Shown here piece by piece: positions 1 through 43,445 of a stretch of 54,436 nt of DNA (positions are counted from its first letter, which is position 1; each line of letters opens with the position of its first letter). Under the pieces are notes generated by a model, which was given only the letters and a program-made list of their open reading frames with translations, did no database searches and had not been told where the DNA came from. Made by a program: the position numbers and the translations under genes. This DNA is from a plasmid, in sequence record NZ_CP046475.1, one strand, 5' to 3'.

Positions 1-742
1 GTTCTCCAAGGACGGGACCGAGGTCACCGGCGCCTCGTACACCTTCCGGGACGGCTCCGGTCCCTGGCTGGGCGGTACGAGCCTGGCGCGCGACCTGACC
101 CTGCCGAAGCTGCGCGCGATGTGGGACGACACCCCACAGAACCGCGCCGAGGCGAAGGGGGTGTGGGACCGCCGCGAGGGCATCCCGAAGGAGAGCGCGG
201 CACCGGCCGGTACGGGCTCGTGGAACGCCGCACAGCAGGCCCTGGCCAAGTGGGCGGCGAAGGTCGAGCAGATCGACCCACGCGACTACGCGACCTGGTC
301 GTCCACCGCCCGCGACGCGGCTGCGATCACCTCAGAGCTCACCCGCTCCTCCGGCGGCCGCCAGGAGCAGCTGCTCGCCAACGCCACGCAGGAGCTCGCA
401 CGCAACGCGCAGACGCGGCAGCGGGTCGCTGCACCGGCTGCGGACGACGCCCGTGTCGCGTGTCGGCACATCTCGCTCGCCCTGCGCTCGGCATCGAAGT
501 CCGACGCCACCGGGTGGTGGGCGGTGTGGCAGCAGCTCTCGCGGGTCAACCGCGCGATCCACGGTGCGCAGAGCGCCCGCGGTGAACTCGTGCGCGCCCA
601 GCGCTTCGAGCGCGCCGCTCACCGCGACCTCGTGAGCATCCAGAACGGGCTGCGCAAGGCAGCCGAGTCCAAGCCGGCGCAGACCCCCCGGCCCCGAGCA
701 GCGCAGAGGACGACCGAGACAAACAGGGAGCAGGGACGATGA
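1..742 (+). CDS. C-terminal part of a protein (5' partial; frame 2 open from the window start); possibly the relaxase C-terminal domain if the replicon is circular
   Basis: ORF is open from position 2 (FSKDGTEVTGASYTFRDG...). Its stop overlaps the next gene as ATGA at 739. Frame is compatible with the relaxase ORF that runs off the 3' end. Confidence 0.5.
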   Translation, partial: FSKDGTEVTGASYTFRDGSGPWLGGTSLARDLTLPKLRAMWDDTPQNRAEAKGVWDRREGIPKESAAPAGTGSWNAAQQALAKWAAKVEQIDPRDYATWSSTARDAAAITSELTRSSGGRQEQLLANATQELARNAQTRQRVAAPAADDARVACRHISLALRSASKSDATGWWAVWQQLSRVNRAIHGAQSARGELVRAQRFERAAHRDLVSIQNGLRKAAESKPAQTPRPRAAQRTTETNREQGR

Positions 743-1803
743 GCGAGCACAGCATGGACGAGACGATGAGCGACGTCACCCGCAGCGCGCGGCTGGCCGT
801 GATGCTCATGGCGCAGGCCAGCGAGCAACTGGCTCGCCGCATCGCCGAGGCGCAGCGCGCGGCCGCGCAGGACACCAACGAGCGAGCGACTGCCCTGCGC
901 GAGCAGCTGAACCTCGCCCAGGACGCCGCGCGCGCCTCCTACGAACCGTTGACGGACCCCGCCCGCTTCGCTGGCACCAGCGCTGAGACCGCCGTCTCGG
1001 CGTGGTCGACCGCCGCGGCGTGGAGCGAGGTCGACCCGCAGGCTGCGGCCGCGCAGGCCTCCCTTCGTCAGCAGATCCTCGATCGGTGGGACGTCGACCC
1101 GCAGATCCTGCGCGACGCGACCCTCGTCGACGCGCGGACGGCCGCCGAGCCTGCGCGCGACGCGGCCGCTGAGACCGAGAGGCTGACCGAGGTGATGGAC
1201 CCCGAGTGGCGAGAGCACGCCAGCGTTGAAGAGCTCGAGGCGCGCTGGCACGAGGCGCAGAACCACCCCGAGCGGCCCGGAGCAGCCGAGACCCTCGCCG
1301 TCCTCGACCGCGAGCTGCACGACCGGTTCGGCCTCGACGTCGAGATGCTGCGTCGCAGCGAGCAGGACATGGGAGAGGCGCTGTGGCACGCCGCCGGCGA
1401 CCACGCCGCGGCCGAGGCGGACCGAGCCGCTGAGACCAGCGAGCAGACCAGCGCCGCCGGCTGGGAGAACGAGGCCCACGCCGAGCGCAACCGCGAAGCC
1501 ACCGCCGGCGACGACGCAGGCCAGGAGGTCGAAGACAGCGTCGATGCCCGCGAGGCCGAGGACAAGGCATCCGCCGGATCAGCCGCCGCGGCCGAGACCG
1601 AGACCGATCACGGTCAGGCCCGTGCAGACGCCGCCGCGATGGAGCGAGCGGGCGTACCCGCCCGCTCCCAGCAGGTCCGCCTGAGCACCGCCAAGGGGTT
1701 CGGTGCCTCGACCGAGGAAGGCGTCAAGCACCCGGCACGGCCCAAGGGACGCAAATCCTCCCAGCGCAAGAGCGCAGACCGCACCCACGACCGTGGACGC
1801 TAG
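739..1803 (+). CDS. Acidic Ala/Glu-rich hypothetical protein (plasmid transfer-associated?)
   Basis: 354-aa ORF; ATGA overlap with the upstream gene; low-complexity acidic composition; no recognisable catalytic motif. Confidence 0.45.
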   Translation: MSEHSMDETMSDVTRSARLAVMLMAQASEQLARRIAEAQRAAAQDTNERATALREQLNLAQDAARASYEPLTDPARFAGTSAETAVSAWSTAAAWSEVDPQAAAAQASLRQQILDRWDVDPQILRDATLVDARTAAEPARDAAAETERLTEVMDPEWREHASVEELEARWHEAQNHPERPGAAETLAVLDRELHDRFGLDVEMLRRSEQDMGEALWHAAGDHAAAEADRAAETSEQTSAAGWENEAHAERNREATAGDDAGQEVEDSVDAREAEDKASAGSAAAAETETDHGQARADAAAMERAGVPARSQQVRLSTAKGFGASTEEGVKHPARPKGRKSSQRKSADRTHDRGR

Positions 1804-1843
1804 GGCACCATCGGGGCCATCACCTGATGAATCGGAGAGTGTG

Positions 1844-2029
1844 ATGAGTCGAGCGGCCATCGCCGCGATGGCGATCGTCATCGGAGCGGCGATCTTTGCG
1901 GTGCCGTCTATCACCAGCCCGGGCGCCGTACGAGCGGCACTTCAGATCGGGTTGGCGGTCGCAGCTGGGGTAGTCCTTCTCCTTGAGATCCGCAGTCTGA
2001 AGCGACGACACCAGGACGGTTCACGATGA
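1844..2029 (+). CDS. Small 2-TM membrane protein, paralog of the Rhs-adjacent immunity candidate
   Basis: ATG with GGAGAG Shine-Dalgarno (SD) 4 nt upstream. 61 aa: two hydrophobic helices around an SPG turn plus a C-terminal LKRR tail. Alignable with the 3248..3418 product (AAIF...SP.G...GL.V...LLL..LKRR). Confidence 0.5.
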   Translation: MSRAAIAAMAIVIGAAIFAVPSITSPGAVRAALQIGLAVAAGVVLLLEIRSLKRRHQDGSR

Positions 2030-2036
2030 GCACCTC

Positions 2037-2414
2037 TTGCCGGGCATCCTCGACGAGATGGGCGCGCTCATGACACCGGATCGAGCCTCCGACCGACCGC
2101 CCGCCCCTGTGGGTCGATGGGAAGACGTCGATCGAGTTGGTGACGACTTCCGCCTGGCTCGTGGAAAGAAGTTGCTAGTCCTCTCAGGTGTTGCCGTACT
2201 CGTCAGCGTTGCGCTCCTCATCGTCGGGGATTCCACGATCCGAGTGTTCGGAGGCGTCGGCCTGGCCTGGAGCCTCTTGGCCTTCGTCCCAGCCGTCTTC
2301 ATCGTCAGTAAGGCACGAAACAGGATCCGCGCGGGGCGGGGTCTGGTGCCCGGCGACCCTTACCGGCCTGACGGTGTGGCCTCAAGTCCTCCCGGTGCGC
2401 AGTCGGACAAGTAG
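2037..2414 (+). CDS. Small membrane protein (2 predicted TM helices, basic tail)
   Basis: TTG start; 125 aa; TM segments LLVLSGVAVLVSVALLIVG and GVGLAWSLLAFVPAVFIV followed by SKARNRIR. Confidence 0.4.
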   Translation: MPGILDEMGALMTPDRASDRPPAPVGRWEDVDRVGDDFRLARGKKLLVLSGVAVLVSVALLIVGDSTIRVFGGVGLAWSLLAFVPAVFIVSKARNRIRAGRGLVPGDPYRPDGVASSPPGAQSDK

Positions 2415-2429
2415 AGGGCCGCCGTCCGT

Positions 2430-2726
2430 CTACTTCGACTCTTCGAGGCTGAGATACCTGTCCGTGCGGAACAGCCCGCCGAGGGTGTCCCCGTTGCTGA
2501 CGGTGAAGGAGCGAACCTCGCCGTCATCGGCGTCGCCCTTGATGAGGTCGGAGCCGGTCCAGTCGATCTTGGCCTGAATGTCGAATTGCCCTGGCGGGAT
2601 CTCGAACTCCACCGTCTCGCCTCGGCTCACCTTCCCGACTTCGCGACCATTGATAAGTATCGAGAACTTCCTGAGGCGGTTTGCCCACCACTCATTGGAA
2701 CGTGTCACTCGAATGATGGCACTCAC
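2430..2726 (-). CDS. Hypothetical small soluble protein (98 aa)
   Basis: Intact ORF 18 bp downstream of the 2745..2945 membrane-protein gene on the same strand; beta-rich composition; no recognisable motif. Confidence 0.45.
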   Translation of the reverse strand: MSAIIRVTRSNEWWANRLRKFSILINGREVGKVSRGETVEFEIPPGQFDIQAKIDWTGSDLIKGDADDGEVRSFTVSNGDTLGGLFRTDRYLSLEESK

Positions 2727-2744
2727 CGCAGCCCCTCCTCACCA

Positions 2745-2945
2745 TCACCGAGGACGTCGAAATCGTTTGAACAACTCCAGGGCAAGGGTGCCAAGCGCGT
2801 AGACGACGACGATGCCGATGGCAATGAACAAAATCCTGCCTAGATCCATGGTCCCAACCCAAGCCCCGAGGAATAGCACGATAGAAACGATGGTTGTCAT
2901 CGCAACGACTTCCTCAAGCCGCCGCGTCCTGTGTCGATCAGGCAC
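2745..2945 (-). CDS. Small 2-TM membrane protein (immunity-like paralog); alternative start at 2900 (MTTIV...)
   Basis: Two hydrophobic helices and a C-terminal KRFRRPR tail, the same architecture as the 1844..2029 and 3248..3418 products. Confidence 0.45.
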   Translation of the reverse strand: MPDRHRTRRLEEVVAMTTIVSIVLFLGAWVGTMDLGRILFIAIGIVVVYALGTLALELFKRFRRPR

Positions 2946-3247
2946 TGCGGTTTCTCCCTTCCCCGAGCCGTTCGAACTCTACTGGCGATGATGTGCCTCA
3001 CGTACCGCGACCCAAGGGGCGCAAGGACTCTCATCGTCAGAGCGCGAACCGAGCTCACGGCCGCGGCCGCTAACTAGCCCGACCGCGCGGTTGCGAACTA
3101 CGCACACACAGCGAATAGGCCTTCATTCCAACTCGGCCAAGCCGCAGTATCTGCGGCCGATATGAAACGGCTCCGCGGCGTCCCGCTAGCAGACGCGGAA
3201 GAGAGTGGTGCGATCCTTGTAAGGGTCAAGCCTATGGTCGGGCTTAA

Positions 3248-3418
3248 TCAGGCACGACGCTTGAGCTTGAGCAGTAGGGCAATTGATGTGACCACCAGGC
3301 CGAATCCTCCCAGGGCCAAGAGTCCGCCTGATGGGGAAGCTAGCGACCCTGAGAATATGGCCGCTGCAACTATAAGGCAGCCAGTAATCAGGCCTATCCA
3401 GTAAGTAGTCTTATCCAC
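3248..3418 (-). CDS. Candidate immunity protein for the Rhs C-terminal toxin (56-aa 2-TM protein; below the ORF-track size cutoff)
   Basis: GTG start 10 bp after the Rhs stop, with a GGAG SD inside the Rhs 3' end. Translation VDKTTYWIGLITGCLIVAAAIFSGSLASPSGGLLALGGFGLVVTSIALLLKLKRRA has an in-frame upstream stop. Paralogous to the 1844..2029 product. Confidence 0.5.
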   Translation of the reverse strand: MDKTTYWIGLITGCLIVAAAIFSGSLASPSGGLLALGGFGLVVTSIALLLKLKRRA

Positions 3419-3428
3419 TTCAACTCCA

Positions 3429-6400
3429 CTAGAACGTGATTATATCGCCATTATCGTCGTAGCAAGACTGGACAATTGACGCTCCAGCGAATGCAAATCC
3501 AGCGAATCCAAATCCTACCGTGAATGGCCCGCCGAATACACTCACACCAAGCCCAAACGTCGCCAGTACGCCGCCGCCAATGGAAATCGCGCACCCGACC
3601 CACGGCTCGCCCATCGCTCCGGTCGGATCTGTTTGGTTCGTGGGGTTGCACCCGACGTAAGCGTAGGGCTGGGTCTCGGCGGGCTGCGCGGGGTTGGTGA
3701 TGCGCTCTGCCGGGTCGGTCTGGGTCCAGCGGTGCATGCCGGGGTCGTAGTACCGCAGGCCGATCTTGTAGTTGCCAGTGGCGGCATTGGTGGTGTCGAG
3801 CCATTCGCCGGTGTAGCGCCAGTTGACCAAGGGGATGTCTGCGGCTGCTTCGGGGTTCTTCCCGCCCTGATAGCCACCGAAGGGGTCGTACCAGTAGTCG
3901 TTAACACGCTCACCCGCGGAGTTGACCACGCCGATGGTCGATCCGAGTCGGTCACTGAGGTAGTAGTAGCGCTTCCCGTCGGGTCCCTTTTGGCCCAGGA
4001 CGCGGCCGTCGGGGGCTAGGACGTAGTCGGTCGTGCCGGAGCTGGTGGTGCTGGAGGTGACGCCGAGGAGGCTGTTGGTGAATGTGATGCCTCCGGCCTT
4101 GGTTCGTTCGACCTGGCTGGTGCCGTCGTATTCCATCGCCCGGGGGTCGTCCTGGTCACGCTGGGTCATGGTGGTGGCGCGGGCGCGCTCGTCGTAGGCG
4201 GCGTTGCCGCCCTGGTTGTCACCGGTCCACATGCCGTTGGCGTCGTAGGTGTTGGTCAGGGTGGTGGCCCCGCCGACGCTGGTGAGCTGGTTTGCGGCGT
4301 TGTAGTTGCCGGTGAAGGAGTCGGTCTGGGTGGGGCTGATCCAGTCGGTCCACGACGTCATGTTGCTGTTCGCGTCGTAGTTGTAGACGTCCTCGGAGCG
4401 CTTGACGCTGTTCTTGGTCGAGGTGCTCTTCTTGATCCGGCCTGAGCTGTCGTAGTCGTAGGTGACGTGGAAGTCGAAGACCGGGTCGTCGATCGTGTAG
4501 ACGTTGTCAGTCGTCTTCCCGCCGGGGCTGGTGTACCCGTAGTTGAGGTCGGTCAGCAGGGTGAAGGTGCCGTTGCTGTTGGCCCGGTCCTGGTAGATGC
4601 GCTCGATGCGGCCGCTCTTGTCGCGGTCTTGGCGGTCGGTCACGCCGCCGGGGTAGGTGATCGAGGCGGTCTTGTGCTGGCCGTAGCTGTAGTTGATGGT
4701 GTTGCCGTCGGGCGGGGTGATGGTCTTGGGGTCGTTCTCGATGTCGTAGGTGTAGCCGGTGGTGCCACGCGGGGTGGTCATCGAGGCCATGTTGCCGGCG
4801 ACGTCGTAGGTGTAGCTGTTCGCGACGCCCGGCAGGTTCTCGGCGGTGACGCGGTTGCGGGCGTCCAGAGCCCATGCAGTGTTCTTCGTGGTGCTGTTGT
4901 GGGTGTCGACGCGGCTTGTGCGGTTGCCGTTGTTGTCGTAGGTGTAGCTCACCGAGCTGGTCGAGGTGGAGGCCCCGGGCTTGGTGTAGGTGATCTTGGT
5001 GACCTCGTCCTTGTCGTTGTAGTCGATGACCTGCTTGTTGCCCTTGCCGTCGAGAACCGTCCGCAGCCGGTTGGTGGCGTCGTAGGTCATGGTGGAGTCA
5101 CCTGCGGGGGCGGGGCGGTCGATCTTGGTGAGGTTGCACCCGGTGTAGCTGTAGGTGGTGGTGTTTCCCTTGCCGTCCTTGCTCGAGGACGGCACGCCGG
5201 GGCAGGCGTCGGAGGCGGACTGGTAGTTGATCGTGGTGGTGGAGTCGCTGGTCTTGACGCTGGTCAGCTGCTCGCGGTTGTTCCAGTCGTAGTCGATTCC
5301 CACGCCGCGGGAGTCGGTGTACTTGCTGGGCTTGTCTGGGGTGTCGGGGTCGAGGTAGTCGAACGTCGACTTCGCGCCGTTGTCCTCGGTGAAGTCCTTG
5401 ACGTTGTAGCCGTCGTAGGTCAGCGTCCCGATGCCGCCTTGGGCGTTGGAGTACTCGTTGACAGCGTTGGTCTGGCTGACAGGAGAGCCGTCGGCGTTCT
5501 CCGGCTTGTCGTCATAGTCGGTGGTCTGAGCGCTGCCGGCGCGGGGGGTGAGGTACTTGGTCTGGCGGCCGCGCTCGTCGAAGGTGTAGGTCCAGGCGTT
5601 GCCGCGCTGGTCGGTAACTGCGACGTGCTGGGTGGTGTTGTCCTGGTCGGGGGTGAAGGTGTACCGGGTGATCGCGGGCTTGGCGGTGGTCGAGTCGGCC
5701 CAGATGATCTTGTTCAGCCGGTCGGTGGTGTCGTACTCGTAGCGAGTGGTGTTGTTCTCGGCGTCGGTGACCGAGGTCAGGTTGTGGTTGGTGTCGTAGG
5801 CGTAGGTCGTGGTCCGGCCGAGCTGGTCGGTGACCGAGGTCAGGTCGTTGCCGGTGTACCCATAGCTGATGAGCCGCCCGCGGGGGTCCGTGATCTTGCT
5901 GATGTACCCGTTGGCGCCCCAGTTGACGGTGGTGGTCTCACCGCGGGTGTCGGTGATCGCGTTGACCCGGCCGCCGGGGCTGTAGCCGTAGGTGATCTTG
6001 TTGCCGTTCTTGTCCTCGACCTCGTCGAGGAAGGTCCCGTCGACGAAGCGGTAGCGCAGGCCTGAGTCGACCATCCGCAGGGTGTACGTCGTCCCGGTCT
6101 TCGACAGCTTCGCGTTCAGGCCGTCGGGCGAGTTCCAGCTGCCCATGCCCTGGCGGTAGGTGAAGAGCTCTTTGCCGCCGGTGGGGGTCTCGAAGGTCGC
6201 GTTGTTCGTGCTGGGGTCGATGACCATGCGCACGCTGTTGCCGATGGTGGAGTTCCAGCCGTAGCCGAAGACGTCGGTGCCGTCGAAACGGGAGTTGTAG
6301 TAGCGGCCCACGGTCATGTTCATGCCCGCGACACCGGAGAGGTTGACGTCGCTGGCCTCCATCAGCAGGTTGCTGGTGGCGACGTTGACCCGCTGGCGCA

Positions 6401-7838
6401 GCCTGTCGGTCAGCTCGTCGTCGTTGAAGGTGAAGTACGGCAGCACACCGAGCTGCTTCTGACGCCACGTCACCTTCAGGTAGGGCTCGTTGACGCCCTC
6501 CTCCATGGTGGTGAAGGTCTTGGCCGAGTCGGTGCTGAACTCATTGGCGGTCAGCGCCAGGCCCCAGTTGGGGTTGGTGTCGGGGTCGTCGATCCAGTCG
6601 CGCATCGCCTGGGTGATCGGGACCGAGACATACCCCGGCGCGCAGCCGGGCCCGCCCTTTGCGGCGCTGGTCTGGCCGATAACCGACCCGAGAGTGGGGT
6701 TGGGCCAGCCGACGCTGGTGGTGTACCAGACGCTCTCGATGCGCTTGGCCTGGATGGTCGTGGGGGTGCAGGAGGCTGAAGACTCGTTGTAGACGTTCAC
6801 CGACGCCGACTCGACCCAGCCACCGGCGAAGGTGTCGACGTTGAACTTCATCAGCGAGCGGAACTTGTTCGACCCGAACAGCCCGGCACGCATGAACGTC
6901 CACCCGGCGTAGTTGTAGGAGGAGTCGCCGGAGTTGATCATCGTGTCGCCGGTGACGTCGAACTGCACCGTCGGGTCGACGACCACGGGGTAGGCCCGGT
7001 CAGGGGCGTTGAGCCAGGCGTCGTCGACGCTGACGCGCAGCGTGGTCTTCCCGGAGAGCTTGACGAGCTCCATGCTCACGTCCTGGGAGACCTCGTCGTT
7101 GGCGTCGGTCATGAAGCCTTGGGGGATGACCGCGGTGACCTCACCCGCGGTGTCGACGAGCTCGACCGACCCGCCAGCCATGCGCGCGGTCAGACCGGTC
7201 AGGTCCATCGGGAAGTCGAACGTGCGCGGCGTGCTCGCCGAGCGCAGGATGATCTCCTCCTTGACCCCTCCCCGGATCGAGTGCAGCTTCAGGTCCACCT
7301 GCGGGCGCAGGCCCGCGAACCGGGCCGTGGTCGCGGTCTGCGACCGAGGCACATCGGTGGCCTTCGACATCGCCCACGACACCCCGCGGCCCTGACCGAA
7401 GTCGAGGTCGACCAGTTGCGGGTCGTCGCTGTCCTTGGCGACGGCGAGGTCGACCGGGGAGTCACCGTTGCGCAGCACTCCGGCGGAGTCGGCGGTCAGA
7501 CGGTTGTCGATCGAGACCCACGTGTCGCCCTCCTGGAAGTTCACCGGGGCCTGGTAGACCCGTGTCTCCATCACACCGGGCTCGTCGGTGGCGAACGTGC
7601 GGGTGTACTCACCGCGCTCGGAGACGATCTCGTCACCCGGCGCCAGAGCCGGGTCGGCGACCGAAACCTTCGGTGTCGTCGGTGTCGCCGGCCGGTCCTG
7701 CTGCTTGGCCTCACCCGCGTACGGGCCGGCCGTCTGATCCACCGGGTCACCCGGCGCTGCAACCGCTCCCCCAGCCCCGGACCCGACCAGCGCCGCCGCT
7801 GAAACAGCAGCAACCGACACCAAAGACACACGTCGCAT
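3429..7838 (-). CDS. Rhs/YD-repeat polymorphic toxin with N-terminal signal peptide and a short glycine-rich hydrophobic C-terminal domain
   Basis: Many YD repeats (YTYDANG, YNYDANSN, YTYDVAGN, YEYDTTDRL...). Core-end motif RYYDPGMHRWTQTDP then ...TDPTGA. Last ~60 aa: GCAISIGGGVLATFGLGVSVFGGPFTVGFGFAGFAFAGASIV. Start chosen at the internal ATG (MRRVSLVSVAAVSAAALVGSG...) with an AGGGG SD; the track's longest ORF starts at 7880. Confidence 0.9.
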   Translation of the reverse strand: MRRVSLVSVAAVSAAALVGSGAGGAVAAPGDPVDQTAGPYAGEAKQQDRPATPTTPKVSVADPALAPGDEIVSERGEYTRTFATDEPGVMETRVYQAPVNFQEGDTWVSIDNRLTADSAGVLRNGDSPVDLAVAKDSDDPQLVDLDFGQGRGVSWAMSKATDVPRSQTATTARFAGLRPQVDLKLHSIRGGVKEEIILRSASTPRTFDFPMDLTGLTARMAGGSVELVDTAGEVTAVIPQGFMTDANDEVSQDVSMELVKLSGKTTLRVSVDDAWLNAPDRAYPVVVDPTVQFDVTGDTMINSGDSSYNYAGWTFMRAGLFGSNKFRSLMKFNVDTFAGGWVESASVNVYNESSASCTPTTIQAKRIESVWYTTSVGWPNPTLGSVIGQTSAAKGGPGCAPGYVSVPITQAMRDWIDDPDTNPNWGLALTANEFSTDSAKTFTTMEEGVNEPYLKVTWRQKQLGVLPYFTFNDDELTDRLRQRVNVATSNLLMEASDVNLSGVAGMNMTVGRYYNSRFDGTDVFGYGWNSTIGNSVRMVIDPSTNNATFETPTGGKELFTYRQGMGSWNSPDGLNAKLSKTGTTYTLRMVDSGLRYRFVDGTFLDEVEDKNGNKITYGYSPGGRVNAITDTRGETTTVNWGANGYISKITDPRGRLISYGYTGNDLTSVTDQLGRTTTYAYDTNHNLTSVTDAENNTTRYEYDTTDRLNKIIWADSTTAKPAITRYTFTPDQDNTTQHVAVTDQRGNAWTYTFDERGRQTKYLTPRAGSAQTTDYDDKPENADGSPVSQTNAVNEYSNAQGGIGTLTYDGYNVKDFTEDNGAKSTFDYLDPDTPDKPSKYTDSRGVGIDYDWNNREQLTSVKTSDSTTTINYQSASDACPGVPSSSKDGKGNTTTYSYTGCNLTKIDRPAPAGDSTMTYDATNRLRTVLDGKGNKQVIDYNDKDEVTKITYTKPGASTSTSSVSYTYDNNGNRTSRVDTHNSTTKNTAWALDARNRVTAENLPGVANSYTYDVAGNMASMTTPRGTTGYTYDIENDPKTITPPDGNTINYSYGQHKTASITYPGGVTDRQDRDKSGRIERIYQDRANSNGTFTLLTDLNYGYTSPGGKTTDNVYTIDDPVFDFHVTYDYDSSGRIKKSTSTKNSVKRSEDVYNYDANSNMTSWTDWISPTQTDSFTGNYNAANQLTSVGGATTLTNTYDANGMWTGDNQGGNAAYDERARATTMTQRDQDDPRAMEYDGTSQVERTKAGGITFTNSLLGVTSSTTSSGTTDYVLAPDGRVLGQKGPDGKRYYYLSDRLGSTIGVVNSAGERVNDYWYDPFGGYQGGKNPEAAADIPLVNWRYTGEWLDTTNAATGNYKIGLRYYDPGMHRWTQTDPAERITNPAQPAETQPYAYVGCNPTNQTDPTGAMGEPWVGCAISIGGGVLATFGLGVSVFGGPFTVGFGFAGFAFAGASIVQSCYDDNGDIITF

Positions 7839-7880
7839 GAAGCACCCCTGCTCTATCGCCCCTGGACGGGACGGACGCAC

Positions 7881-8021
7881 GCAACGTATCGGTACGAACG
7901 ATTCAAGCGATAGGGGTCAACCCAAGAAAGTTCAAAGTTTCTTAAAAGAAGCCTGAACAAACCCTGAACATGATTCGGACCCTTTATCTGGAAGCGTGGT
8001 TGGCCCTATTCGCTCAGAAGC
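7881..8021. promoter_or_regulatory. AT-rich intergenic promoter region upstream of the Rhs gene
   Basis: Locally low GC (aagaaagttcaaagtttcttaaaagaagcctgaacaaaccctgaacatgattcgg) in an otherwise ~70% GC window; repeated CTGAACA. Confidence 0.35.
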
Positions 8022-9995
8022 TCAGCGCATACGGGTGGTGGGCAGCTGTCCTGCGCCCCAGTTCTGGACTCCGGCGACGACCTTGACCCGCACGGTGGTG
8101 CCGCGAGGGGCGTACATCGACAGCGAGCGGGTCGAGCCGGTGGTGGTGTAGCTCGTGGTGACGGTCTTGGCAGAGTACTTGCGGTAGGACCAATCACTGG
8201 AGTGGTACTTACGGGCCTTGGGGAAGGTGCGAGTGACCTCGACGACGGAGCGGGCTGCGGGCGGGCCGCCGACGCCCTCGCGGGCGAGGAAGCGCACGCG
8301 GGCGTGCCACTGGCCTTCCTTGACGGTGGAACCGATGAGCTGGACGGGCCGGTAGGAGGTGGTCTCGATCATCGCGGCCTGGTCGAAGTCGGTCCAGCTG
8401 TCCCATCGCCCGGCTGACCACAGCGCGGTGATGGTGGAGTCGGCTCGCAGGTTGCCGGCGTCGGGGGTCCACGGCGACATCGGGTTGCGGTACCGGTCGT
8501 CGGCTACGGGTGTCACGTCGCGGTAGGTCCAGGTCGACCCGGCGTCGTCGGACCACCACTCCTGGACCCGTCCCTGCTCGGTGGGTCCGGGGTTGACCAG
8601 CAACGCTCGGGTGGTGCTGCCCGGGACGAGGTCGTAGCCCTGGGCGAACTCGGCGCCGTGGATCAGGGTGCGCCCGACCCACTCGCCGTTGGTCATGACA
8701 AACCACTTGTAACTGGAGGCCTTCGGCGCGCCCTCGGGCTTGAAATTCGTCGTCATCGCCAACGCAAGCCGACCTTCAGGGTCGCGCTGGATGTCGTAGA
8801 CCCGCGCCGGGCCCTCGGCAGAGCTCCCGTTGTAGATCAACGTCCCCTCACGCGGGTCCATCGGCGAGGAACGCAGGTCGCTCATGGCACGGATGGGCTG
8901 CCCGTCGGAACGGGAGAAGACCCCGTCCTGGTAGCGGATGTGGAACTGGGAGTTCGTCGCGAGGTTGACCGGGTCGCCGTCGGTGACGGCGATGTCGAGG
9001 GTGCCCTGCCCGTCGCTGACGAACTTCATGTAGCTCCACCCCTTGGAGACGTCCTTGGGGTAGGGGTTGGTGAAGAGCTGGACTGCGGGGGTCCACATCC
9101 GCAGGTCCTTCGAACGGGTCAGGTACCAGTCGTTGCGGTTGTCGTCGGGGTTGCGCAGCCGGGTGAGCAGCCAGTACGGGTGGGAGTCCCCACGCAGGTA
9201 GTGCACCTGGGTGTAGGTCGCCATCCGATGCGCCACGCCCGAGCCAGCCAGGCGCTGCACCGGGCGGAAGTCCATCGCGTCCGCGCTGGTCGAGACTCGG
9301 TACTGCACCTCGGTCGAGGCGTGACCGGACCAGAACGCCGCGATCCGCCCGTCACCGGTCTGCAGCAACGACGGCGAGGCGTGGTCGTCGGCGACCCCAC
9401 GCCCCAGCGCGGCGTCGATCCGCGCGACCCGTGCGTGCTGCAGGGCGTGCTTGGCCTTCGAAACCCGGGTGACCTCTATGTCGCCTTTGGTCGACGTCGT
9501 GCCGACGTAGGTCGCCGCCCGCGTGGTCAGGGCCCGCGGGTTCATGTACCACGACCACGTCCCGTCAGCCACGAGCTGGGTGCGTCGCACACCCGCGCGC
9601 ATCGGGGCCTTGACGACCTCGCCGTCAGGGGTCTCGATCGACCCACCGTCGGCCGGGGAGATCGAGCGAGCCGCCGCACGGGTGCCCTGCGCCACGATCG
9701 GGCTGCCCGACACGTTGACTTTCGTGCTGGGCACCGCAGCCGGCAACGAGCCCGTCCCGCCCAGATCTGTCGGCACGGTCAGCACCTTGCCCCCACGACG
9801 CACCGTGACAAAGTCACGACCCTCGACGTTGCGCTCCCCCGGGCTCGAGGACACCCCACCCGGAGCAGCAGCCGAAGCCGCCGGGGCGCCCGCCGCGGGC
9901 ACCAAGATCGCGCCGGCCACCGCCGTCACCACCAGAGCAGGAAGCGCCCCACGGCGCAGCGACAAACGAGAAGAGAACACTCTCCGGACCCCCAT
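8022..9995 (-). CDS. Secreted protein with a BNR/Asp-box motif (possible glycosyl hydrolase/sialidase-like)
   Basis: Signal peptide MGVRRVFSSRLSLRRGALPALVVTAVAGAILVPAAGA; Asp-box SDDAGSTW; 657 aa. The longest ORF extends to 10073. Confidence 0.55.
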   Translation of the reverse strand: MGVRRVFSSRLSLRRGALPALVVTAVAGAILVPAAGAPAASAAAPGGVSSSPGERNVEGRDFVTVRRGGKVLTVPTDLGGTGSLPAAVPSTKVNVSGSPIVAQGTRAAARSISPADGGSIETPDGEVVKAPMRAGVRRTQLVADGTWSWYMNPRALTTRAATYVGTTSTKGDIEVTRVSKAKHALQHARVARIDAALGRGVADDHASPSLLQTGDGRIAAFWSGHASTEVQYRVSTSADAMDFRPVQRLAGSGVAHRMATYTQVHYLRGDSHPYWLLTRLRNPDDNRNDWYLTRSKDLRMWTPAVQLFTNPYPKDVSKGWSYMKFVSDGQGTLDIAVTDGDPVNLATNSQFHIRYQDGVFSRSDGQPIRAMSDLRSSPMDPREGTLIYNGSSAEGPARVYDIQRDPEGRLALAMTTNFKPEGAPKASSYKWFVMTNGEWVGRTLIHGAEFAQGYDLVPGSTTRALLVNPGPTEQGRVQEWWSDDAGSTWTYRDVTPVADDRYRNPMSPWTPDAGNLRADSTITALWSAGRWDSWTDFDQAAMIETTSYRPVQLIGSTVKEGQWHARVRFLAREGVGGPPAARSVVEVTRTFPKARKYHSSDWSYRKYSAKTVTTSYTTTGSTRSLSMYAPRGTTVRVKVVAGVQNWGAGQLPTTRMR

Positions 9996-10140
9996 CAGGT
10001 CATAGGTAGCCCGACGGAAGACACCCCCTGGCGCACAATGCATCCTGCACGAAAGTTGCATCTGATGCAGCAAGACGGTGGAAACCCTCCGTCACCTGGG
10101 TCAGCCGACTGCTAACGCCTGGACGTCTCGAGGTGCGGTG

Positions 10141-10170
10141 TGACCACAATGACCACAATGACCACACCGA
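10141..10170. repeat. Tandem 9-10 bp repeat (gaccacaat x3) in an intergenic region
   Basis: tgaccacaatgaccacaatgaccacacc. Confidence 0.4.
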
Positions 10171-33802: not shown

Positions 33803-35458
33803 ATGCTCTCCCTCAACACCCCTCGACCCGCGCGTCAGCGCGCGCAGCTCATCGCGTCCGACGTCTCTGTGATGCGCGGAGCCACCCCCGTCCTCAACCA
33901 CGTTGACCTCACGATCACGGCCACCTCGCGCGTAGCGATCGTCGGCGAGAACGGCCGGGGTAAGTCGACGCTCCTGCACGTCCTCACCGGCACTCTCACC
34001 CCGGACAGCGGAGTAGTGCAGCGACTCGGGACGCTCGGCATAGCCGAACAGGAAATGCCGAGCGGCGACGATAGAACCGTGGGCCAGGCGGTCGCGGAAG
34101 CGATCGCGCAGCCGCTGGCCGCCCTGGCGTCCCTCGATGCGGCCGCGGCGTCACTCTCGGCGGGCGTCACCGGAGCTGAGGAGCGATATGCCGCCGCTCT
34201 GGAGCACGCCGAAGTCCTAGATGCGTGGGACGCCGAACGGCGGGTGCAGATCGCGCTGGAAGCGCTCGACGCCGAAACCGATCCCGCCCGCCGACTGCAC
34301 GACCTCTCCGTCGGGCAGCGGTACCGCGTGCGCTTGGCGTGCCTGCTCGGCGCCGATGACGATTTCCTGTTGCTCGACGAGCCGACGAACCATCTCGATA
34401 GGAGCGGCCTCGAGTTCCTGACCGCGCAACTGCGGTCGCGAAACGGCGGCGTGATCGTCGTCACCCACGATCGCGCGCTGCTATCCGACGTCGCGGAGAC
34501 GATCGTCGACCTCGACCCAACCCCCGACGATCAGGTGCGCGTGTACGGCAACGGCTACGCCGGCTACCGGGAAGGCCGGCGCGCAGAGCGCGAACGGTGG
34601 GAGCAAGAATACGAGCGACAGCAGACCGAGCTCGCACGACTGCAGGACAGTCTCAGCTCAGCGCAGAATCGTCTCGTCTCGGGCTGGCGCCCAGAGAAGG
34701 GAACCAACAAGCACGGACGGGCGACGCGCGCGGGCGGGCTCGTGCAAAGCGTGCACCGCCGGCAGGAACAACTCGAAGCGCACGCGGTGACCGTCCCCGA
34801 GCCGCCGCAAGTGTTCCGCTTCCCAGACCTCGCGACCCGAACCGGAGCGGTGCTACTGAGTGTGGATCAGGTGACCGTGGCCGACAGGCTCACGCGCCCG
34901 GTGACGCTCTCGCTGGCGCACCGGGGGCGTCTGGTCGTGACCGGACCCAATGGGGCCGGGAAGTCCACTCTGTTGAGCGTTGCAGCGGGTGATCTGCACG
35001 CGGACACGGGCAGCGTTCGTCGTCCATCGAATGTCCGGCTTGCGTTCCTCCGCCAGGAGACCGCGCTGCCGCCGGATCGTCGCGCAAGCGCGGTCTACGC
35101 GGCCCACGTCGACACACTCGTGGCGGCCGGCACCGTCCACCCAAGCGAGGCCGTCGGGCTCTCGCAGCTCGGGCTCCTTCGCGCCCGCGAATCGAGCAAG
35201 CGGATAGGTGAGCTGTCGATGGGCCAGCAACGGCGCCTCGACCTGGCCCTGGTGCTCGCCACCAAGCCTCACGTGCTCCTGCTCGACGAACCGACCAACC
35301 ACCTATCGATCGCGCTCGTCGACGAACTGACCGACGCGCTCAACGCCACCCAAGCGGCTGTGATCGTATCCACCCACGACAGGCAGCTTCTTCGCGACGT
35401 CGACGGCTGGCCCTCGTTGCGACTGGCAGCACCGACCGAGAGCGAGGCGCTGGTATGA
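33803..35458 (+). CDS. ABC-F family double-ATPase (ARE/ribosomal-protection-type antibiotic resistance candidate)
   Basis: Two ABC cassettes without a TM domain: GENGRGKSTLLHVL, LSVGQRYRVRLA, LLLDEPTNHLD; GPNGAGKSTLL, LSMGQQRRLDLA, LLLDEPTNHLS; 551 aa. Confidence 0.85.
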   Translation: MLSLNTPRPARQRAQLIASDVSVMRGATPVLNHVDLTITATSRVAIVGENGRGKSTLLHVLTGTLTPDSGVVQRLGTLGIAEQEMPSGDDRTVGQAVAEAIAQPLAALASLDAAAASLSAGVTGAEERYAAALEHAEVLDAWDAERRVQIALEALDAETDPARRLHDLSVGQRYRVRLACLLGADDDFLLLDEPTNHLDRSGLEFLTAQLRSRNGGVIVVTHDRALLSDVAETIVDLDPTPDDQVRVYGNGYAGYREGRRAERERWEQEYERQQTELARLQDSLSSAQNRLVSGWRPEKGTNKHGRATRAGGLVQSVHRRQEQLEAHAVTVPEPPQVFRFPDLATRTGAVLLSVDQVTVADRLTRPVTLSLAHRGRLVVTGPNGAGKSTLLSVAAGDLHADTGSVRRPSNVRLAFLRQETALPPDRRASAVYAAHVDTLVAAGTVHPSEAVGLSQLGLLRARESSKRIGELSMGQQRRLDLALVLATKPHVLLLDEPTNHLSIALVDELTDALNATQAAVIVSTHDRQLLRDVDGWPSLRLAAPTESEALV

Positions 35459-36720
35459 ACCGCGAGACTCCCGACCGGCTGCGGGCGCTGCGCCCTCTTG
35501 CCACCCGCGACTATCGGCTGCTGTTCGCGGCGGTTGGTATCGAGGTCTTCGGCACCGGCATGTGGACCATCGTCATGGTGTTCCAGGTGCTCGCCCTCGA
35601 CGACAGTCCCCTTGCTCTTTCGGCCGTGGCTACCGGGCTCAGCCTCGGTCTCTTCGCTTTCTCGGTCCTCGGCGGGGTGGTAGCCGACCGCTTCTCCAAA
35701 CGACGGATCATCATCACCGTGCAGGGATGCACCGCGGCGGTCATGACCACCGTCGCTGTGCTGTCCCTCACAGGCGCAATCGAGCTGTGGCATGTCGGGC
35801 TCGCCTCGTTCGCGATGGGCGCGGGTAGCGCGTTCTTCTACCCCGCCTACAGCGCCTACCTCCCGCAAGTACTCCCACCCGAGCAACTACTCGCCGCGAA
35901 CGGGCTCGAAGGGGCTCTCAGGCCATCAATGGGCCAGGGCCTCGGCCCCGCCCTCGGAGGGATTGTCGTCGGGGCCTTCTTCCCCGCCGTTGGCGCGGTC
36001 ATCGTCGCCGCCTCCTACGCGGTCGCGTTCGTCATCACCCTGTTCCTCAGCCGCCGCGAGGACGCACCCGCTCCGGCGACGTCGGAAGAACGCACGAGCG
36101 TGTGGGGGGATCTCCGAGCTGGGGTCCGCTACGTCGCTCGCACCCGGTGGCTGCTGTGGACGCTGATCTTCGGATCATCGCTCGCGCTCATCATCCAGGG
36201 GCCAATCGAGGTGCTGCTGCCGTTCCTCACCCGCGACCGCTTCGACAACGCCGAAGCGACGTTCGGACTCTTGCTCGCCGCCTACGGAATCGGCGGCGCA
36301 ATCGGCTCGCTCATCGTGTCGTCTCTCAAACTGCCCCGGCGCTATCTCACGCTCATGATCGGCCTCTGGGGCGGCGGAACCCTCCCGCTCGTGCTGATCG
36401 GCCTCGTCAACGACCTGGCGGTGATGCTCATCACACTGTTCGCCGTTGGCGCGGCCACGGGAGCTGGTGTAGTCATCTGGGGCACGCTGCTTCAACGACT
36501 CGTGCCACCGGAGATGATTGGGCGCGTCGCCAGTCTCGACTTCTTCGTCTCGATCACCTTCATGCCCGTTTCGATCGCGATCGCCGGGCCGCTGTCGCTC
36601 GTCGTACCGATACCAGCCATCTTCATCGTGGCGGGCGTCGCGCCGACGCTGCTCGCTGTCGTCGCGCTTGTCGCAGGACGCATGCGGCATGTCGAAACGA
36701 GACAACCACTGGACACGTGA
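35455..36720 (+). CDS. MFS transporter (efflux, EntS/macrolide-exporter-like)
   Basis: ATGA overlap with the ABC-F gene; 12 predicted TM helices; 421 aa. Confidence 0.85.
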   Translation: MNRETPDRLRALRPLATRDYRLLFAAVGIEVFGTGMWTIVMVFQVLALDDSPLALSAVATGLSLGLFAFSVLGGVVADRFSKRRIIITVQGCTAAVMTTVAVLSLTGAIELWHVGLASFAMGAGSAFFYPAYSAYLPQVLPPEQLLAANGLEGALRPSMGQGLGPALGGIVVGAFFPAVGAVIVAASYAVAFVITLFLSRREDAPAPATSEERTSVWGDLRAGVRYVARTRWLLWTLIFGSSLALIIQGPIEVLLPFLTRDRFDNAEATFGLLLAAYGIGGAIGSLIVSSLKLPRRYLTLMIGLWGGGTLPLVLIGLVNDLAVMLITLFAVGAATGAGVVIWGTLLQRLVPPEMIGRVASLDFFVSITFMPVSIAIAGPLSLVVPIPAIFIVAGVAPTLLAVVALVAGRMRHVETRQPLDT

Positions 36721-42957: not shown

Positions 42958-43445
42958 CCCAGACCCATCTGCAGATCGGCAGCGACGCCGTCACGCGCCT
43001 CATCGCCGACGTGCAACATCATGGTCAGCTCGGAGTCGAGACCGGCGCCGTGCTCCTCAGTCCACGTGGCGAACCCACTGTTACTCACCTGGCGATCGCA
43101 GGAGATGTCGGAGTCGTTCGTCGGCGAGGGTTGTTCGTGCTTTCCGCAGCGGCGCTGGGGCCACTGTTCGACTTCGCCGAAGAGCGGGACCTTCAGCTGC
43201 GCGCGCAGGTGCACTCGCACCATGGCAGGGCATTTCTCTCGCCCACCGACGAAGCGGGCAACATCAGAATGACCGGCTTCGTCGCTGCTGTAATTCCGAC
43301 CTTCACCCACCCCTCAACAGACGTCGACCTTTGGGGTTGGTGGACCTTCGACGGATCCTGCTGGGTGCCCTCGCCGGCAGCCAGCCTTGGCGACCTGGAA
43401 ACCACGGTGCTGACCTTCGACGCGGAAGGGGTTCGCGATGAGTGA
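42954..43445 (+). CDS. JAB/MPN (JAMM) metalloprotease / deubiquitinase-like
   Basis: JAMM-like motif E...HSHHGRAFLSPTD (HxH...S..D); ATGA overlap with the E2-like gene. Confidence 0.6.
   Translation: MTQTHLQIGSDAVTRLIADVQHHGQLGVETGAVLLSPRGEPTVTHLAIAGDVGVVRRRGLFVLSAAALGPLFDFAEERDLQLRAQVHSHHGRAFLSPTDEAGNIRMTGFVAAVIPTFTHPSTDVDLWGWWTFDGSCWVPSPAASLGDLETTVLTFDAEGVRDE

What the first reader, a model, noticed from the sequence alone, without database searches (positions are those of the whole stretch)
1844..7838. Rhs toxin with a very short glycine-rich membrane-like C-terminal domain and a family of paralogous 2-TM immunity candidates
The 1469-aa Rhs/YD protein ends, after the canonical core terminus (RYYDPGMHRWTQTDP...TDPTGA), in only ~60 residues. 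Almost all of them form a Gly/Ala/Phe-rich hydrophobic segment (GCAISIGGGVLATFGLGVSVFGGPFTVGFGFAGFAFAGASIV), not a recognisable nuclease or deaminase fold. Ten bp downstream is an unannotated 56-aa ORF (3248..3418, GTG start with GGAG SD) encoding a 2-TM protein with a KLKRR tail. At least two more small proteins nearby (1844..2029 and 2745..2945, possibly 2037..2414) share its architecture and alignable residues (AAIF...SP.G...GL.V...LLL..LKRR). This matches the logic of a membrane-targeting (ionophore or glycine-zipper pore) toxin with small membrane immunity proteins and 'orphan' immunity paralogs. The tail itself has no obvious named family. The Rhs gene also has its own AT-rich promoter (7881..8021).
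Basis: partly seen in the sequence, partly recalled or inferred. Interest (0 to 1): 0.8.

Follow-up and report, generated by a model that had tools for sequence, protein, structure and literature searches.

The report
Rhs toxin carrying mini membrane peptide
A plasmid of the actinobacterium Janibacter melonis encodes a large secreted Rhs "cocoon" protein whose toxic payload is probably a 61-residue greasy, glycine-rich peptide aimed at a rival's membrane. The gene is followed by a tiny unannotated membrane protein that probably protects the producer, but the supposed extra copies of that protector nearby are not supported.

Summary
The core observation holds. ORF 3429..7838(-) is a 1469-aa Rhs protein of the WapA type: signal peptide, DNRLRE domain, DUF6531, YD repeats and Rhs core. 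The core ends at residue 1407 and is followed by only 61 residues, which are hydrophobic and 23% glycine.

The tail and the unannotated 56-aa two-helix ORF 10 nt downstream (3248..3418) form a compositionally foreign cassette (GC3 0.57/0.54 against 0.87-0.98 in the core). An exhaustive search of 1.84 billion proteins found one homologue, an orphan Rhs fragment. Its tail keeps W-GCA-S...SCYD[DE]NGD and both cysteines, and a 60-aa two-TM ORF follows it.

Fifteen of 16 tail modules that I screened on related actinobacterial plasmid Rhs genes are followed by a mini-TM ORF. Most of those tails are equally short and glycine-rich, and 13 of 16 have exactly two cysteines. Counting this window and the homologue, the ORF is present in 17 of 18 cases, against 14% at random positions.

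Not supported: the "paralogous immunity family". Similarity among the small ORFs equals that of reversed decoys, two lie on the other strand, and none follows an Rhs fragment. A strict glycine zipper is absent. The promoter is unverified.

Verdict: a new toxin/immunity family within a known kind (Tse5/Tsi5-like logic), with moderate interest.

The parts
3429..7838 (-). Rhs/YD polymorphic toxin gene, 1469 aa. It is identical to Janibacter melonis plasmid protein QGX08798.1 (EEW87_17490).
   Evidence: ORF list. PF05593 E 4.7e-22 and PF20148. TIGR01643 and TIGR03696. Exact match in NCBI and Logan assemblies.
7752..7838 (-). Predicted Sec-type signal peptide (MRRVSLVSVAAVSAAALVGSGAGGAVA|AP).
   Evidence: Read from the sequence: basic n-region, hydrophobic core, AxA site. 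No signal-peptide predictor was available.
6468..6947 (-). DNRLRE surface domain (aa 298-457), as in WapA-type Rhs proteins of Gram-positive bacteria.
   Evidence: NF033679, E 1.8e-21. The architecture is compared with S. suis WapA in PMC12704120.
6177..6392 (-). DUF6531 (aa 483-554), a domain found at the N-terminal side of Rhs repeat regions.
   Evidence: PF20148, E 1.9e-8.
3618..3890 (-). Rhs-associated core domain (aa 1317-1407). It contains RYYDPGMHRWTQTDP...NPTNQTDPTGA, the predicted aspartyl autoprotease and cleavage site.
   Evidence: TIGR03696, E 2.2e-16. The role of the motif is taken from PMC9637101.
3432..3614 (-). 61-aa C-terminal toxin module (aa 1409-1469). It is a Gly/Phe-rich predicted helical hairpin with Cys8 and Cys51 and an acidic SCYDDNGD tail, and its codon composition is foreign.
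   Evidence: GC3 0.57 against 0.87-0.98 in the core. AF2 predicts helices 4-26 and 31-51, pLDDT 69. One homologue at 53% identity, E 1.5e-6. No family hit.
3424..3427 (-). GGAG Shine-Dalgarno sequence, 5 nt upstream of the GTG start of the 56-aa ORF.
   Evidence: Sequence.
3248..3418 (-). Unannotated 56-aa two-TM ORF with a KLKRRA tail; the cognate immunity candidate.
   Evidence: Not on record as a called gene. GC3 0.54, matching the toxin module. AF2 predicts helices 3-25 and 30-55, pLDDT 78. Positional analogues occur in L004 and in 15 of 16 plasmid modules.
7839..8021 (-). AT-rich intergenic region upstream of the Rhs gene; a possible promoter region, unverified.
   Evidence: GC 51.9% overall and 46.8% for 7881..8021. 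No sigma-70 consensus. Sequence.

Best explanation
This is a plasmid-borne, Sec-exported, WapA-type Rhs polymorphic toxin of Janibacter melonis. Its payload is a roughly 6-kDa hydrophobic peptide rather than an enzyme.

Shown:
- The domain order is signal peptide, DNRLRE, DUF6531, YD repeats, Rhs core, then a 61-aa tail.
- The tail and the next ORF form a foreign-composition cassette.
- A homologous tail on a divergent Rhs fragment is followed by the same kind of ORF.
- The arrangement recurs on many actinobacterial plasmids.

Inferred:
- After export the YD shell folds around the tail, and the core aspartyl protease cuts after DPTGA(1408).
- The released peptide (MGEPW...IITF) forms a two-helix hairpin. 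Its open end is probably stapled by a Cys8-Cys51 disulfide, and the acidic SCYDDNGD end stays outside.
- The peptide inserts into the cytoplasmic membrane of a neighbouring Gram-positive cell. There it oligomerises through small-xxx-small helix packing, dissipates the membrane potential or forms a pore, and stops growth.
- The 56-aa protein from 3248..3418 has N- and C-termini inside (positive-inside rule, KLKRRA tail). It sits in the producer's membrane and blocks insertion or assembly of the peptide by helix-helix binding.
- The Rhs shell serves as a solubility chaperone for the greasy cargo, as shown experimentally for Tse5.
For: 1. Rhs identity and the core end at aa 1407. DNRLRE domain.
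2. GC3 drops from 0.87-0.98 to 0.57 exactly at the tail, and orf56 is at 0.54. This is the signature of a swapped toxin/immunity cassette.
3. Exhaustive phmmer against 1.84e9 representatives finds one real homologue, P0001 (E 1.5e-6). It is an orphan Rhs fragment whose tail is about 50% identical while the adjoining core is only about 31% identical. Both cysteines and SCYD[DE]NGD are invariant, and both proteins stop at the same place, so the tail is not a truncation.
4. In that locus a 60-aa two-TM ORF with a GGAGG ribosome-binding site and a basic tail follows 32 nt downstream.
5. Survey of related actinobacterial plasmid Rhs genes (Clavibacter, Streptomyces, Paenarthrobacter, Arthrobacter). 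Fourteen of the 16 tail modules I screened are Gly/Ala-rich and hydrophobic, 60-105 aa long. Thirteen of 16 have exactly two Cys; the rest have 0 or 4. GC3 is lower than in the core in the 8 where I measured it.
6. A mini-TM ORF starts within -9..+97 nt in 15 of those 16 modules. Counting the window and P0001 this is 17 of 18, against 14% at random positions (binomial 5e-14).
7. AF2 predicts a helical hairpin for both the tail and orf56.
8. Precedent: Tse5 is an Rhs whose shell chaperones a membrane-depolarising CT that is neutralised by the two-TM protein Tsi5 (PMC9637101, PMC10684867).
Against: - There is no experimental or expression evidence for toxicity, cleavage, the disulfide, or translation of orf56.
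- orf56 and its positional analogue in L004 are not significantly similar in sequence (score 35).
- The strict glycine-zipper motif is absent.
- The only within-species variant (L002) has no substitutions in the cassette, so no selection test is possible.
- The AF2 models have only moderate confidence, and any hydrophobic 60-mer tends to be modelled as a hairpin.
- The survey covers a related Rhs clade found by similarity to this core, not a random sample. Some loci are related to each other, so the binomial P overstates independence.
Confidence: 0.68

Rival explanations
1. The peptide is a receptor-dependent bacteriocin-like toxin. It does not depolarise on its own. Instead it jams or opens a specific membrane protein of the target, as class II bacteriocins and microcin E492 do with the mannose transporter. 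The 56-aa protein would then protect by binding the receptor-toxin complex.
For: - The tail has the size, Gly-rich hydrophobic composition and Cys pair typical of class II bacteriocins and microcins (established knowledge).
- A conserved polar SCYD[DE]NGD end could be a recognition element.
- CDI ionophores also need membrane-protein receptors (PMC11630599).
- The non-significant Foldseek list includes microcin E492 bound to ManYZ (7dyr_A, E 6.7). That is a hint only.
Against: - No sequence match to any bacteriocin or microcin family in Pfam, NCBIfam or PDB.
- The fold hit is not significant.
- Nothing in the locus points to a receptor.
Confidence: 0.17
2. The hydrophobic tail is not a toxin. 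It is a C-terminal membrane anchor or sorting signal that holds the Rhs shell on the producer's surface, and the small ORF is a membrane partner.
For: - Two hydrophobic helices at the extreme C-terminus of a secreted protein could anchor it.
- No enzymatic domain is present.
Against: - The tail follows an intact Rhs core end, and both aspartates of the autoprotease motif are present in DPAER and DPTGA (motif role from PMC9637101).
- There is no LPXTG, and no NCBIfam or Pfam sorting-signal model matches.
- The tail ends in an acidic rather than a basic cluster.
- Foreign GC3 and higher conservation than the adjoining core indicate a mobile cassette.
- Arthrobacter pYA7-1b carries three tandem orphan core-end/tail/mini-ORF modules, which is polymorphic-toxin behaviour.
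Confidence: 0.08
3. The cassette is a decayed or inactive remnant, and the 56-aa ORF is a chance open frame.
For: - An open frame of 56 codons at 55% GC is not rare by chance, roughly 1 in 10 by my own rough estimate.
- No annotation pipeline called it.
- The family is extremely rare, with two members.
Against: - The tail homologue ends at the same position and keeps 29 invariant residues.
- The ORF has a well-spaced GGAG.
- Analogous ORFs are present in 17 of 18 loci against a 14% background.
- The Rhs protein is identical across independent assemblies that differ elsewhere on the plasmid.
Confidence: 0.05

Closest known systems
Tse5 (RhsP1) / Tsi5 of Pseudomonas aeruginosa
   Same: An Rhs shell encapsulates a hydrophobic, non-enzymatic C-terminal fragment. 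The fragment is released by the DPxG aspartyl protease and depolarises the target membrane. Immunity is a small two-TM membrane protein encoded next to the toxin (PMC9637101, PMC10684867).
   Different: - Tse5-CT is 149 aa; this tail is 61 aa.
- No sequence similarity was detected (PDB sequence search empty at E<=10; no shared family).
- Tse5 has a PAAR-like N-terminus and is fired by a T6SS into Gram-negative periplasm. This protein has a Sec signal peptide and a DNRLRE domain in a monoderm actinobacterium.
- This tail has a conserved Cys pair.
WapA-type Rhs toxins of Gram-positive bacteria (B. subtilis WapA, S. suis WapA-CT1)
   Same: A Sec signal peptide, an N-terminal surface domain (DNRLRE), DUF6531, YD repeats, a variable CT and a downstream immunity gene (PMC12704120).
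   Different: - The WapA CTs named in that paper, and those I know of for B. subtilis, are nucleases or tRNases of normal domain size with soluble immunity proteins.
- Here the CT is a 61-aa membrane-type peptide with a mini-TM immunity candidate.
- No LysM domain or sortase is linked here.
Glycine-zipper membrane-depolarising LXG/T7SS toxins (TelE, EsxX, TspA/TsaI)
   Same: They are toxins of Gram-positive bacteria whose C-termini insert into and depolarise the membrane from outside, and membrane-embedded immunity proteins protect the producer (PMC12744356).
   Different: - They are delivered by T7SS via an LXG domain, not by an Rhs shell.
- They are defined by an extended (G/A/S)xxxGxxxG zipper, which this tail lacks. 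Several of the Streptomyces plasmid Rhs tails surveyed do have it.
CdiA-CT ionophore toxins / CdiI (E. coli EC93 group)
   Same: A polymorphic-toxin C-terminus that dissipates the proton-motive force, paired with a small TM immunity protein; polymorphic and modular (PMC11630599).
   Different: - They are carried by CdiA (T5SS) in Proteobacteria.
- They contain a separate entry domain and need receptors such as AcrB.
- No sequence relation was found.
Class II bacteriocins / class II microcins
   Same: Hydrophobic, Gly-rich peptides, often disulfide-bonded, that act on the cytoplasmic membrane and have small membrane immunity proteins (established knowledge).
   Different: - They are made as leader-peptide precursors exported by dedicated ABC transporters or by Sec.
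- Here the peptide is the C-terminal cargo of a 1469-aa Rhs protein.
- No family match was found.

Membership tests
Rhs/YD polymorphic toxin | YD/RHS repeats forming the shell | tested here: met
   PF05593, E 4.7e-22, 5 stretches. TIGR01643, E 2.7e-17.
Rhs/YD polymorphic toxin | Rhs-associated core domain ending in the PxxxxDPxG motif, with the two aspartates of the autoprotease | tested here: met
   TIGR03696, E 2.2e-16, aa 1317-1407. TQTDPAER...NQTDPTGA is present in the sequence. Cleavage itself is not testable here.
Rhs/YD polymorphic toxin | A variable C-terminal module that differs from the core in ancestry, followed by a cognate immunity gene | tested here: met
   - GC3 break 0.87-0.98 to 0.57.
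- CT about 50% identical against about 31% for the core, compared with P0001.
- A downstream mini-TM ORF is conserved in position.
- Immunity function was not tested.
WapA-type (Sec-dependent, Gram-positive) Rhs | N-terminal Sec signal peptide and a surface or wall-associated N-terminal domain; no PAAR or VgrG-interacting domain | tested here: met
   DNRLRE domain NF033679, E 1.8e-21. No PAAR hit. The signal peptide was judged from the sequence only.
Glycine-zipper membrane toxins (TelE/EsxX/TspA type) | (G/A/S)xxxGxxxG or GxxxGxxx(G/S/T) motif in a hydrophobic helix (definition from PMC12744356) | tested here: not met
   A regex scan finds no such motif and not even one GxxxG in this tail or in its homologue. 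Only [GAS]xxx[GAS]xxx[GAS] occurs, at residues 7-15 and 21-29.
Tse5-CT family | Sequence homology to Tse5 residues 1169-1317 | tested here: not met
   A profile of the two tails against all PDB chain sequences gives no hit at E<=10. I assume the Tse5 cryo-EM entry reported in PMC10684867 is in that copy and that its deposited chain includes the CT. Phmmer against 1.84e9 proteins returned only P0001.
Tse5/Tsi5-like system (works-like) | Small two-TM immunity protein encoded adjacent to the Rhs gene | tested here: met
   orf56 has two hydrophobic segments and an AF2 hairpin. Tsi5 has two predicted TM regions (PMC9637101).
Class II bacteriocin / microcin | Leader peptide (double-glycine or Sec) on a stand-alone small precursor, or a match to a bacteriocin family model | tested here: not met
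   The peptide is fused to a 1408-aa Rhs protein. No Pfam or NCBIfam hit at E<=10.
C-terminal sorting signals (LPXTG, GlyGly-CTERM, MYXO-CTERM and the like) | A signature motif, then a single TM helix, then a basic tail | tested here: not met
   There is no LPXTG. The tail has two helices and an acidic end. No NCBIfam or Pfam sorting-domain hit.
Orphan immunity / polyimmunity array | Tandem, same-strand paralogues of the cognate immunity gene, often behind Rhs core-end fragments | tested here: not met
   - Similarity is no better than reversed decoys.
- Two of the ORFs are on the opposite strand.
- There are no core-end fragments elsewhere in the window (best E 0.66).
- Contrast: Arthrobacter pYA7-1b has a true orphan array.

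The most novel reading that the evidence does not exclude
Across Actinomycetota, Sec-exported Rhs shells encoded on plasmids may serve mainly as delivery capsules for very small (about 60-105 aa), disulfide-stapled, glycine-rich helical-hairpin peptides. These would be in effect 'bacteriocins in a cocoon', each paired with a largely unannotated mini-TM immunity gene. The Janibacter tail would represent a new, very rare Gly/Phe-rich subfamily, without a canonical glycine zipper, of this undescribed class of membrane toxins.
Probability: 0.45. Interest if true: 0.65.

Novelty: new variant of a known kind. Interest (0 to 1): 0.5.

Why it matters
- If the peptide is toxic, it would be among the smallest Rhs payloads I am aware of. 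It would also show that the Rhs shell is used by monoderm bacteria to carry insoluble membrane peptides, extending what was shown for Tse5.
- The recurring two-cysteine signature and the mini-TM ORFs point to a sizeable set of toxin/immunity pairs on conjugative plasmids of plant-associated and soil actinobacteria (Clavibacter pCM2, Streptomyces linear plasmids). Most of those ORFs are not among the features listed for the records (the PLSDB gene table is incomplete).
- These pairs may affect plasmid maintenance and strain competition.
- They are also a source of compact membrane-active peptides with matched immunity proteins for mechanistic study.

Tried and rejected
1. Word-indexed homology searches with the tail, with orf56 and with the two-tail alignment all returned nothing. 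Only the exhaustive phmmer search found P0001; its second hit, P0002, is a repetitive artefact.
2. Scans of GTDB genomes and JGI metagenomes with the tail alignment, and of genomes with the last 469 aa, found no relative. tblastn of the tail against PLSDB plasmids found nothing.
3. Megablast of window 1-12000 against PLSDB found no match. The organism was identified instead by exact protein look-up.
4. Pfam and NCBIfam searches of all tails and mini-ORFs gave nothing above noise.
5. Foldseek of the tail model against the PDB gave no significant match (best E 2.6). The PDB sequence search was empty.
6. The paralogy of the small ORFs looked significant against residue shuffles. I rejected it after the reversed-decoy control.
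7. Tblastn of the concatenated small ORFs against plasmids hit only with orf98, to Lactococcus and Enterococcus hypothetical proteins.
8. Variation between isolates offered no selection test, because there is only one SNP in 1700..3700 and it is intergenic.
9. The promoter and terminator scan found no promoter and no meaningful terminator.
10. I recalled that Tse5-CT carries glycine zippers. The phrase does not occur in either Tse5 paper, so I dropped that claim.
11. Literature searches found no description of actinobacterial Rhs proteins with short Gly-rich two-Cys tails. Zhang et al. 2012 list only W-TIP as a pore-forming polymorphic-toxin domain.
Full report
**Source and setting.** The 1469-aa protein encoded at 3429..7838(-) is identical to a Janibacter melonis plasmid protein (QGX08798.1, EEW87_17490). 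It occurs on contigs of 34-61 kb in several assemblies. The window is a high-GC conjugative element. It carries a relaxase, a VirD4/TraG-type coupling protein and DUF4913, and a HerA-like ATPase. The Rhs gene lies between a BNR_4 gene and the end of the mobilisation operon.

**Checking the observation: the Rhs gene and its tail.**
- The Rhs ORF and its coordinates are correct.
- It matches RHS_repeat (E 4.7e-22), DUF6531, YD_repeat_2x and the Rhs-associated core domain. The core domain ends at residue 1407, in ...NPTNQTDPTGA.
- The N-terminal third holds a DNRLRE domain (aa 298-457, E 1.8e-21), behind what reads as a Sec signal peptide. This is the WapA-type architecture of Gram-positive Rhs toxins (PMC12704120), not a T6SS type.
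- After the core only 61 residues remain: MGEPWVGCAISIGGGVLATFGLGVSVFGGPFTVGFGFAGFAFAGASIVQSCYDDNGDIITF. They are 23% Gly, have two hydrophobic stretches and match no Pfam or NCBIfam family even at E<=10.

**Checking the observation: the 56-aa ORF and the other small ORFs.**
- Ten nucleotides past the Rhs stop, GGAG-N5-GTG opens the 56-aa ORF 3248..3418(-). It has two hydrophobic segments and a KLKRRA tail.
- No gene with this product exists in the 153-billion-gene index, so it is unannotated everywhere.
- The other small ORFs exist as described. However, 1844..2029 and 2037..2414 are on the plus strand, directly behind the 354-aa mobilisation gene. They are not in the Rhs operon.

**Is the tail a cassette?** Third-position GC is 0.87-0.98 along the Rhs core. 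It falls to 0.57 in the last block, which is the tail, and orf56 is at 0.54. The break lies exactly at the core end. That is what C-terminal displacement by a foreign toxin/immunity cassette produces.

**Relatives of the tail.**
- Word-indexed searches found nothing.
- An exhaustive phmmer search of 1.84 billion representatives found one real relative, P0001 (E 1.5e-6, 53% identity). The second hit is a repeat artefact.
- P0001 is a 326-aa orphan Rhs core-end fragment from metagenome assemblies. Its tail aligns end to end with this one, with 29 invariant positions. These include W5, G7-C8-A9, S11, the VSVF-GG turn, and S50-C51-Y52-D53-x-N55-G56-D57.
- The two tails are about 50% identical, while the adjoining core segments are about 31% identical. 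The tail therefore moves between divergent cores and is conserved in its own right.
- Both proteins stop at the same place, so the short length is native and not a truncation.
- In the P0001 contig a GGAGG ribosome-binding site sits 32 nt after the stop. It opens a 60-aa ORF with two hydrophobic helices and a basic SRKGRVRQ tail. Its sequence is not significantly similar to orf56 (score 35), but its position, size and architecture are the same.
- Scans of GTDB genomes, JGI metagenomes and PLSDB found no further member. The family is real but very rare.

**A wider class on actinobacterial plasmids.** Tblastn of the last 469 aa against plasmids hit 173 records, all below 35% identity. The alignments stop at or within about 20 residues of the core end. 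I inspected 15 actinobacterial plasmid loci, which carry 17 Rhs C-terminal modules. One of these is a conventional toxin, and I screened the tails of the other 16.
- Fourteen of the 16 tails are Gly/Ala-rich, hydrophobic and 60-105 aa long. They come from Clavibacter pCM2 and two relatives, Paenarthrobacter pA, three tandem orphan modules on Arthrobacter pYA7-1b, and seven Streptomyces plasmids.
- The remaining two Streptomyces tails are odd. KN37 is short but charged. AD2-2 has one hydrophobic segment, little glycine and four cysteines.
- In the eight loci where I measured it, tail GC3 is below that of the core.
- Thirteen of the 16 tails have exactly two cysteines, two have four and one has none. 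In the Janibacter core, Cys frequency is 0.36%, which makes exactly two in a 60-80-mer a 2-3% event.
- Fifteen of the 16 are followed within -9..+97 nt by a 39-77-aa ORF with one or two hydrophobic helices, often with a basic tail. Most of these ORFs are not among the features listed for the plasmid records (the PLSDB gene table is incomplete).
- With the window and P0001 included, 17 of 18 tails have such an ORF. The background at 5100 random positions in the same loci is 14.0% (binomial 5e-14, although the loci are not fully independent).
- One Streptomyces Rhs (NBC_01224) has a conventional toxin with SUKH-3 immunity.
- Two Bacillaceae controls have basic tails with non-membrane or unknown partners. 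A Vibrio plasmid Rhs has a 166-aa Gly-rich tail with a three-TM partner.

The Janibacter locus is therefore one member of a recurring arrangement, not an isolated oddity.

**Structure.** AlphaFold2 models the tail as a helical hairpin: helices 4-26 and 31-51, with the turn at FGGP, pLDDT 69. It models orf56 as a hairpin of helices 3-25 and 30-55, pLDDT 78. In the tail hairpin Cys8 and Cys51 lie near the open end, within about one helical turn of register. This makes a stapling disulfide plausible, given the export route and the even cysteine counts across the class. That is inference. Foldseek against the PDB gave nothing significant.

**Claims that fail.**
- *Paralogous immunity family.* orf56 vs orf61 looked significant against residue shuffles (z 4.6). 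Shuffling, however, destroys the two-helix layout. Among 12 mini-TM ORFs, real pairs (mean 31.8, max 55) score no better than pairs with one partner reversed (mean 30.2, max 57), and 4.5% of decoys reach 48. The other pairs are non-significant.
- *Orphan modules.* No Rhs core-end fragment lies anywhere else in the window. None of orf56, orf61, orf66 or orf125 has a plasmid homologue.
- *Origin of the block of small ORFs.* A 68-nt, roughly 77%-identical copy of the 3' end of the 354-aa gene (1736..1803) sits at 3006..3073. This suggests that the block 1804..3005 carrying those ORFs arrived by a separate recombination event.
- *Glycine zipper.* Using the published definition (PMC12744356), this tail and its homologue contain no zipper and not even one GxxxG. 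They have only small-xxx-small-xxx-small runs. Several Streptomyces tails do carry long canonical zippers.
- *Promoter.* The upstream region is AT-rich (46.8% GC), but no consensus promoter was found.

**Mechanism.** I think the most likely mechanism is the Tse5 logic transposed to a monoderm. The Rhs protein is exported by Sec and its shell folds around the tail. The core aspartyl protease cuts after DPTGA. On contact with a neighbour the 6-kDa hairpin partitions into the cytoplasmic membrane, self-associates and collapses the membrane potential. The producer is protected by the two-TM protein from 3248..3418.

The architecture, the cassette nature and the conserved gene pairing are shown. 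Cleavage, the disulfide, membrane activity and immunity are inferred from the Rhs literature (PMC9637101, PMC10684867). I put this at about 0.68. The rivals are a receptor-dependent bacteriocin-like action (about 0.17), a mere membrane anchor (about 0.08) and an inert remnant (about 0.05).

**Comparison with known systems, and novelty.** It works like Tse5/Tsi5, like the glycine-zipper LXG toxins (EsxX, TelE, TspA) and like CDI ionophores. It is a member of none of them: there is no sequence relation, the delivery module differs and the zipper motif is absent. It is a bona fide Rhs/WapA polymorphic toxin.

I found no paper that describes actinobacterial Rhs proteins with short Gly-rich two-Cys tails. 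The 2012 polymorphic-toxin census lists only W-TIP as a pore-forming domain.

I rate it a new variant of a known kind, with moderate interest (0.5). The concept is established. The payload family, its small size, the cysteine signature and the breadth of the largely unannotated class are new.

Noticed in passing
window 1736..1803 and 3006..3073 (+): A 68-nt, roughly 77%-identical copy of the 3' end of the 354-aa mobilisation-operon gene (protein level ...PRPKGRK.S.R.SA.R.H.RGR*) lies just downstream of orf56. The block 1804..3005 between the copies carries orf61, orf125, orf98 and orf66 and looks like a separate insertion or recombination product.
   Followed up: partly
window 2430..2945 (-): orf66 is annotated elsewhere as 51 aa from Met16. 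Together with the 98-aa ORF, which starts 18 nt later behind a GAGGAGG site, it forms a small operon. The 98-aa protein is weakly DUF2846-like. Its only plasmid relatives are hypothetical proteins of Lactococcus and Enterococcus plasmids (38% identity, E 4e-5), an odd phylogenetic jump.
   Followed up: partly
window 7500..9999 compared with L002: An independent assembly (Logan SRR31342669) is 99.25% identical over 12 kb. However, 88 of its 90 differences fall in 7500..9999, which covers the region upstream of the Rhs gene and the BNR_4 gene. The Rhs protein itself is identical. This is a local recombination or hypervariable patch next to the toxin gene.
   Followed up: no
L017 (Arthrobacter sp. 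YA7-1 plasmid pYA7-1b) 1..7000: The large ORF upstream (annotated only as 'hypothetical protein', possibly the main Rhs gene) is followed by an overlapping IS3 transposase gene. Three tandem orphan Rhs core-end modules follow it, with Gly-rich tails of 89, 95 and 105 aa. Each is followed by a mini-TM ORF, making a textbook orphan array of membrane-type tails.
   Followed up: partly
L008 4380..4559; L009 4395..4607; L010 3422..3601; L014 3435..3617 and others: Candidate immunity ORFs of 39-77 aa downstream of Clavibacter and Streptomyces plasmid Rhs genes are mostly not among the features listed for these records. One example overlaps the Rhs stop on Clavibacter michiganensis pCM2. The PLSDB gene table is incomplete, so I could not check the original records.
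   Followed up: partly
L011 (Streptomyces rimosus pPZG101) 3320..3470: This is the only surveyed Gly-rich tail (65 aa, extended canonical glycine zipper, Cys22/Cys40) with no mini-TM ORF starting within 150 nt downstream. Its immunity gene may lie further away or be absent.
   Followed up: no
L024 (Vibrio parahaemolyticus pVPH2) 3730..4500: A proteobacterial plasmid Rhs also ends in a 166-aa Gly-rich hydrophobic tail. An annotated gene at 4242..4496 follows it; read from the earliest in-frame start (4236) the ORF is 86 aa with three hydrophobic segments. Membrane-type Rhs tails are therefore not confined to Actinomycetota.
   Followed up: no
window 33803..36720 (+) and 43438..44937 (+): Other plasmid cargo includes a tandem-ABC ATPase (two ABC_tran domains) followed by an MFS_3 transporter, which may be a resistance or export pair, and a ThiF-family protein. 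These were not examined further.
   Followed up: no
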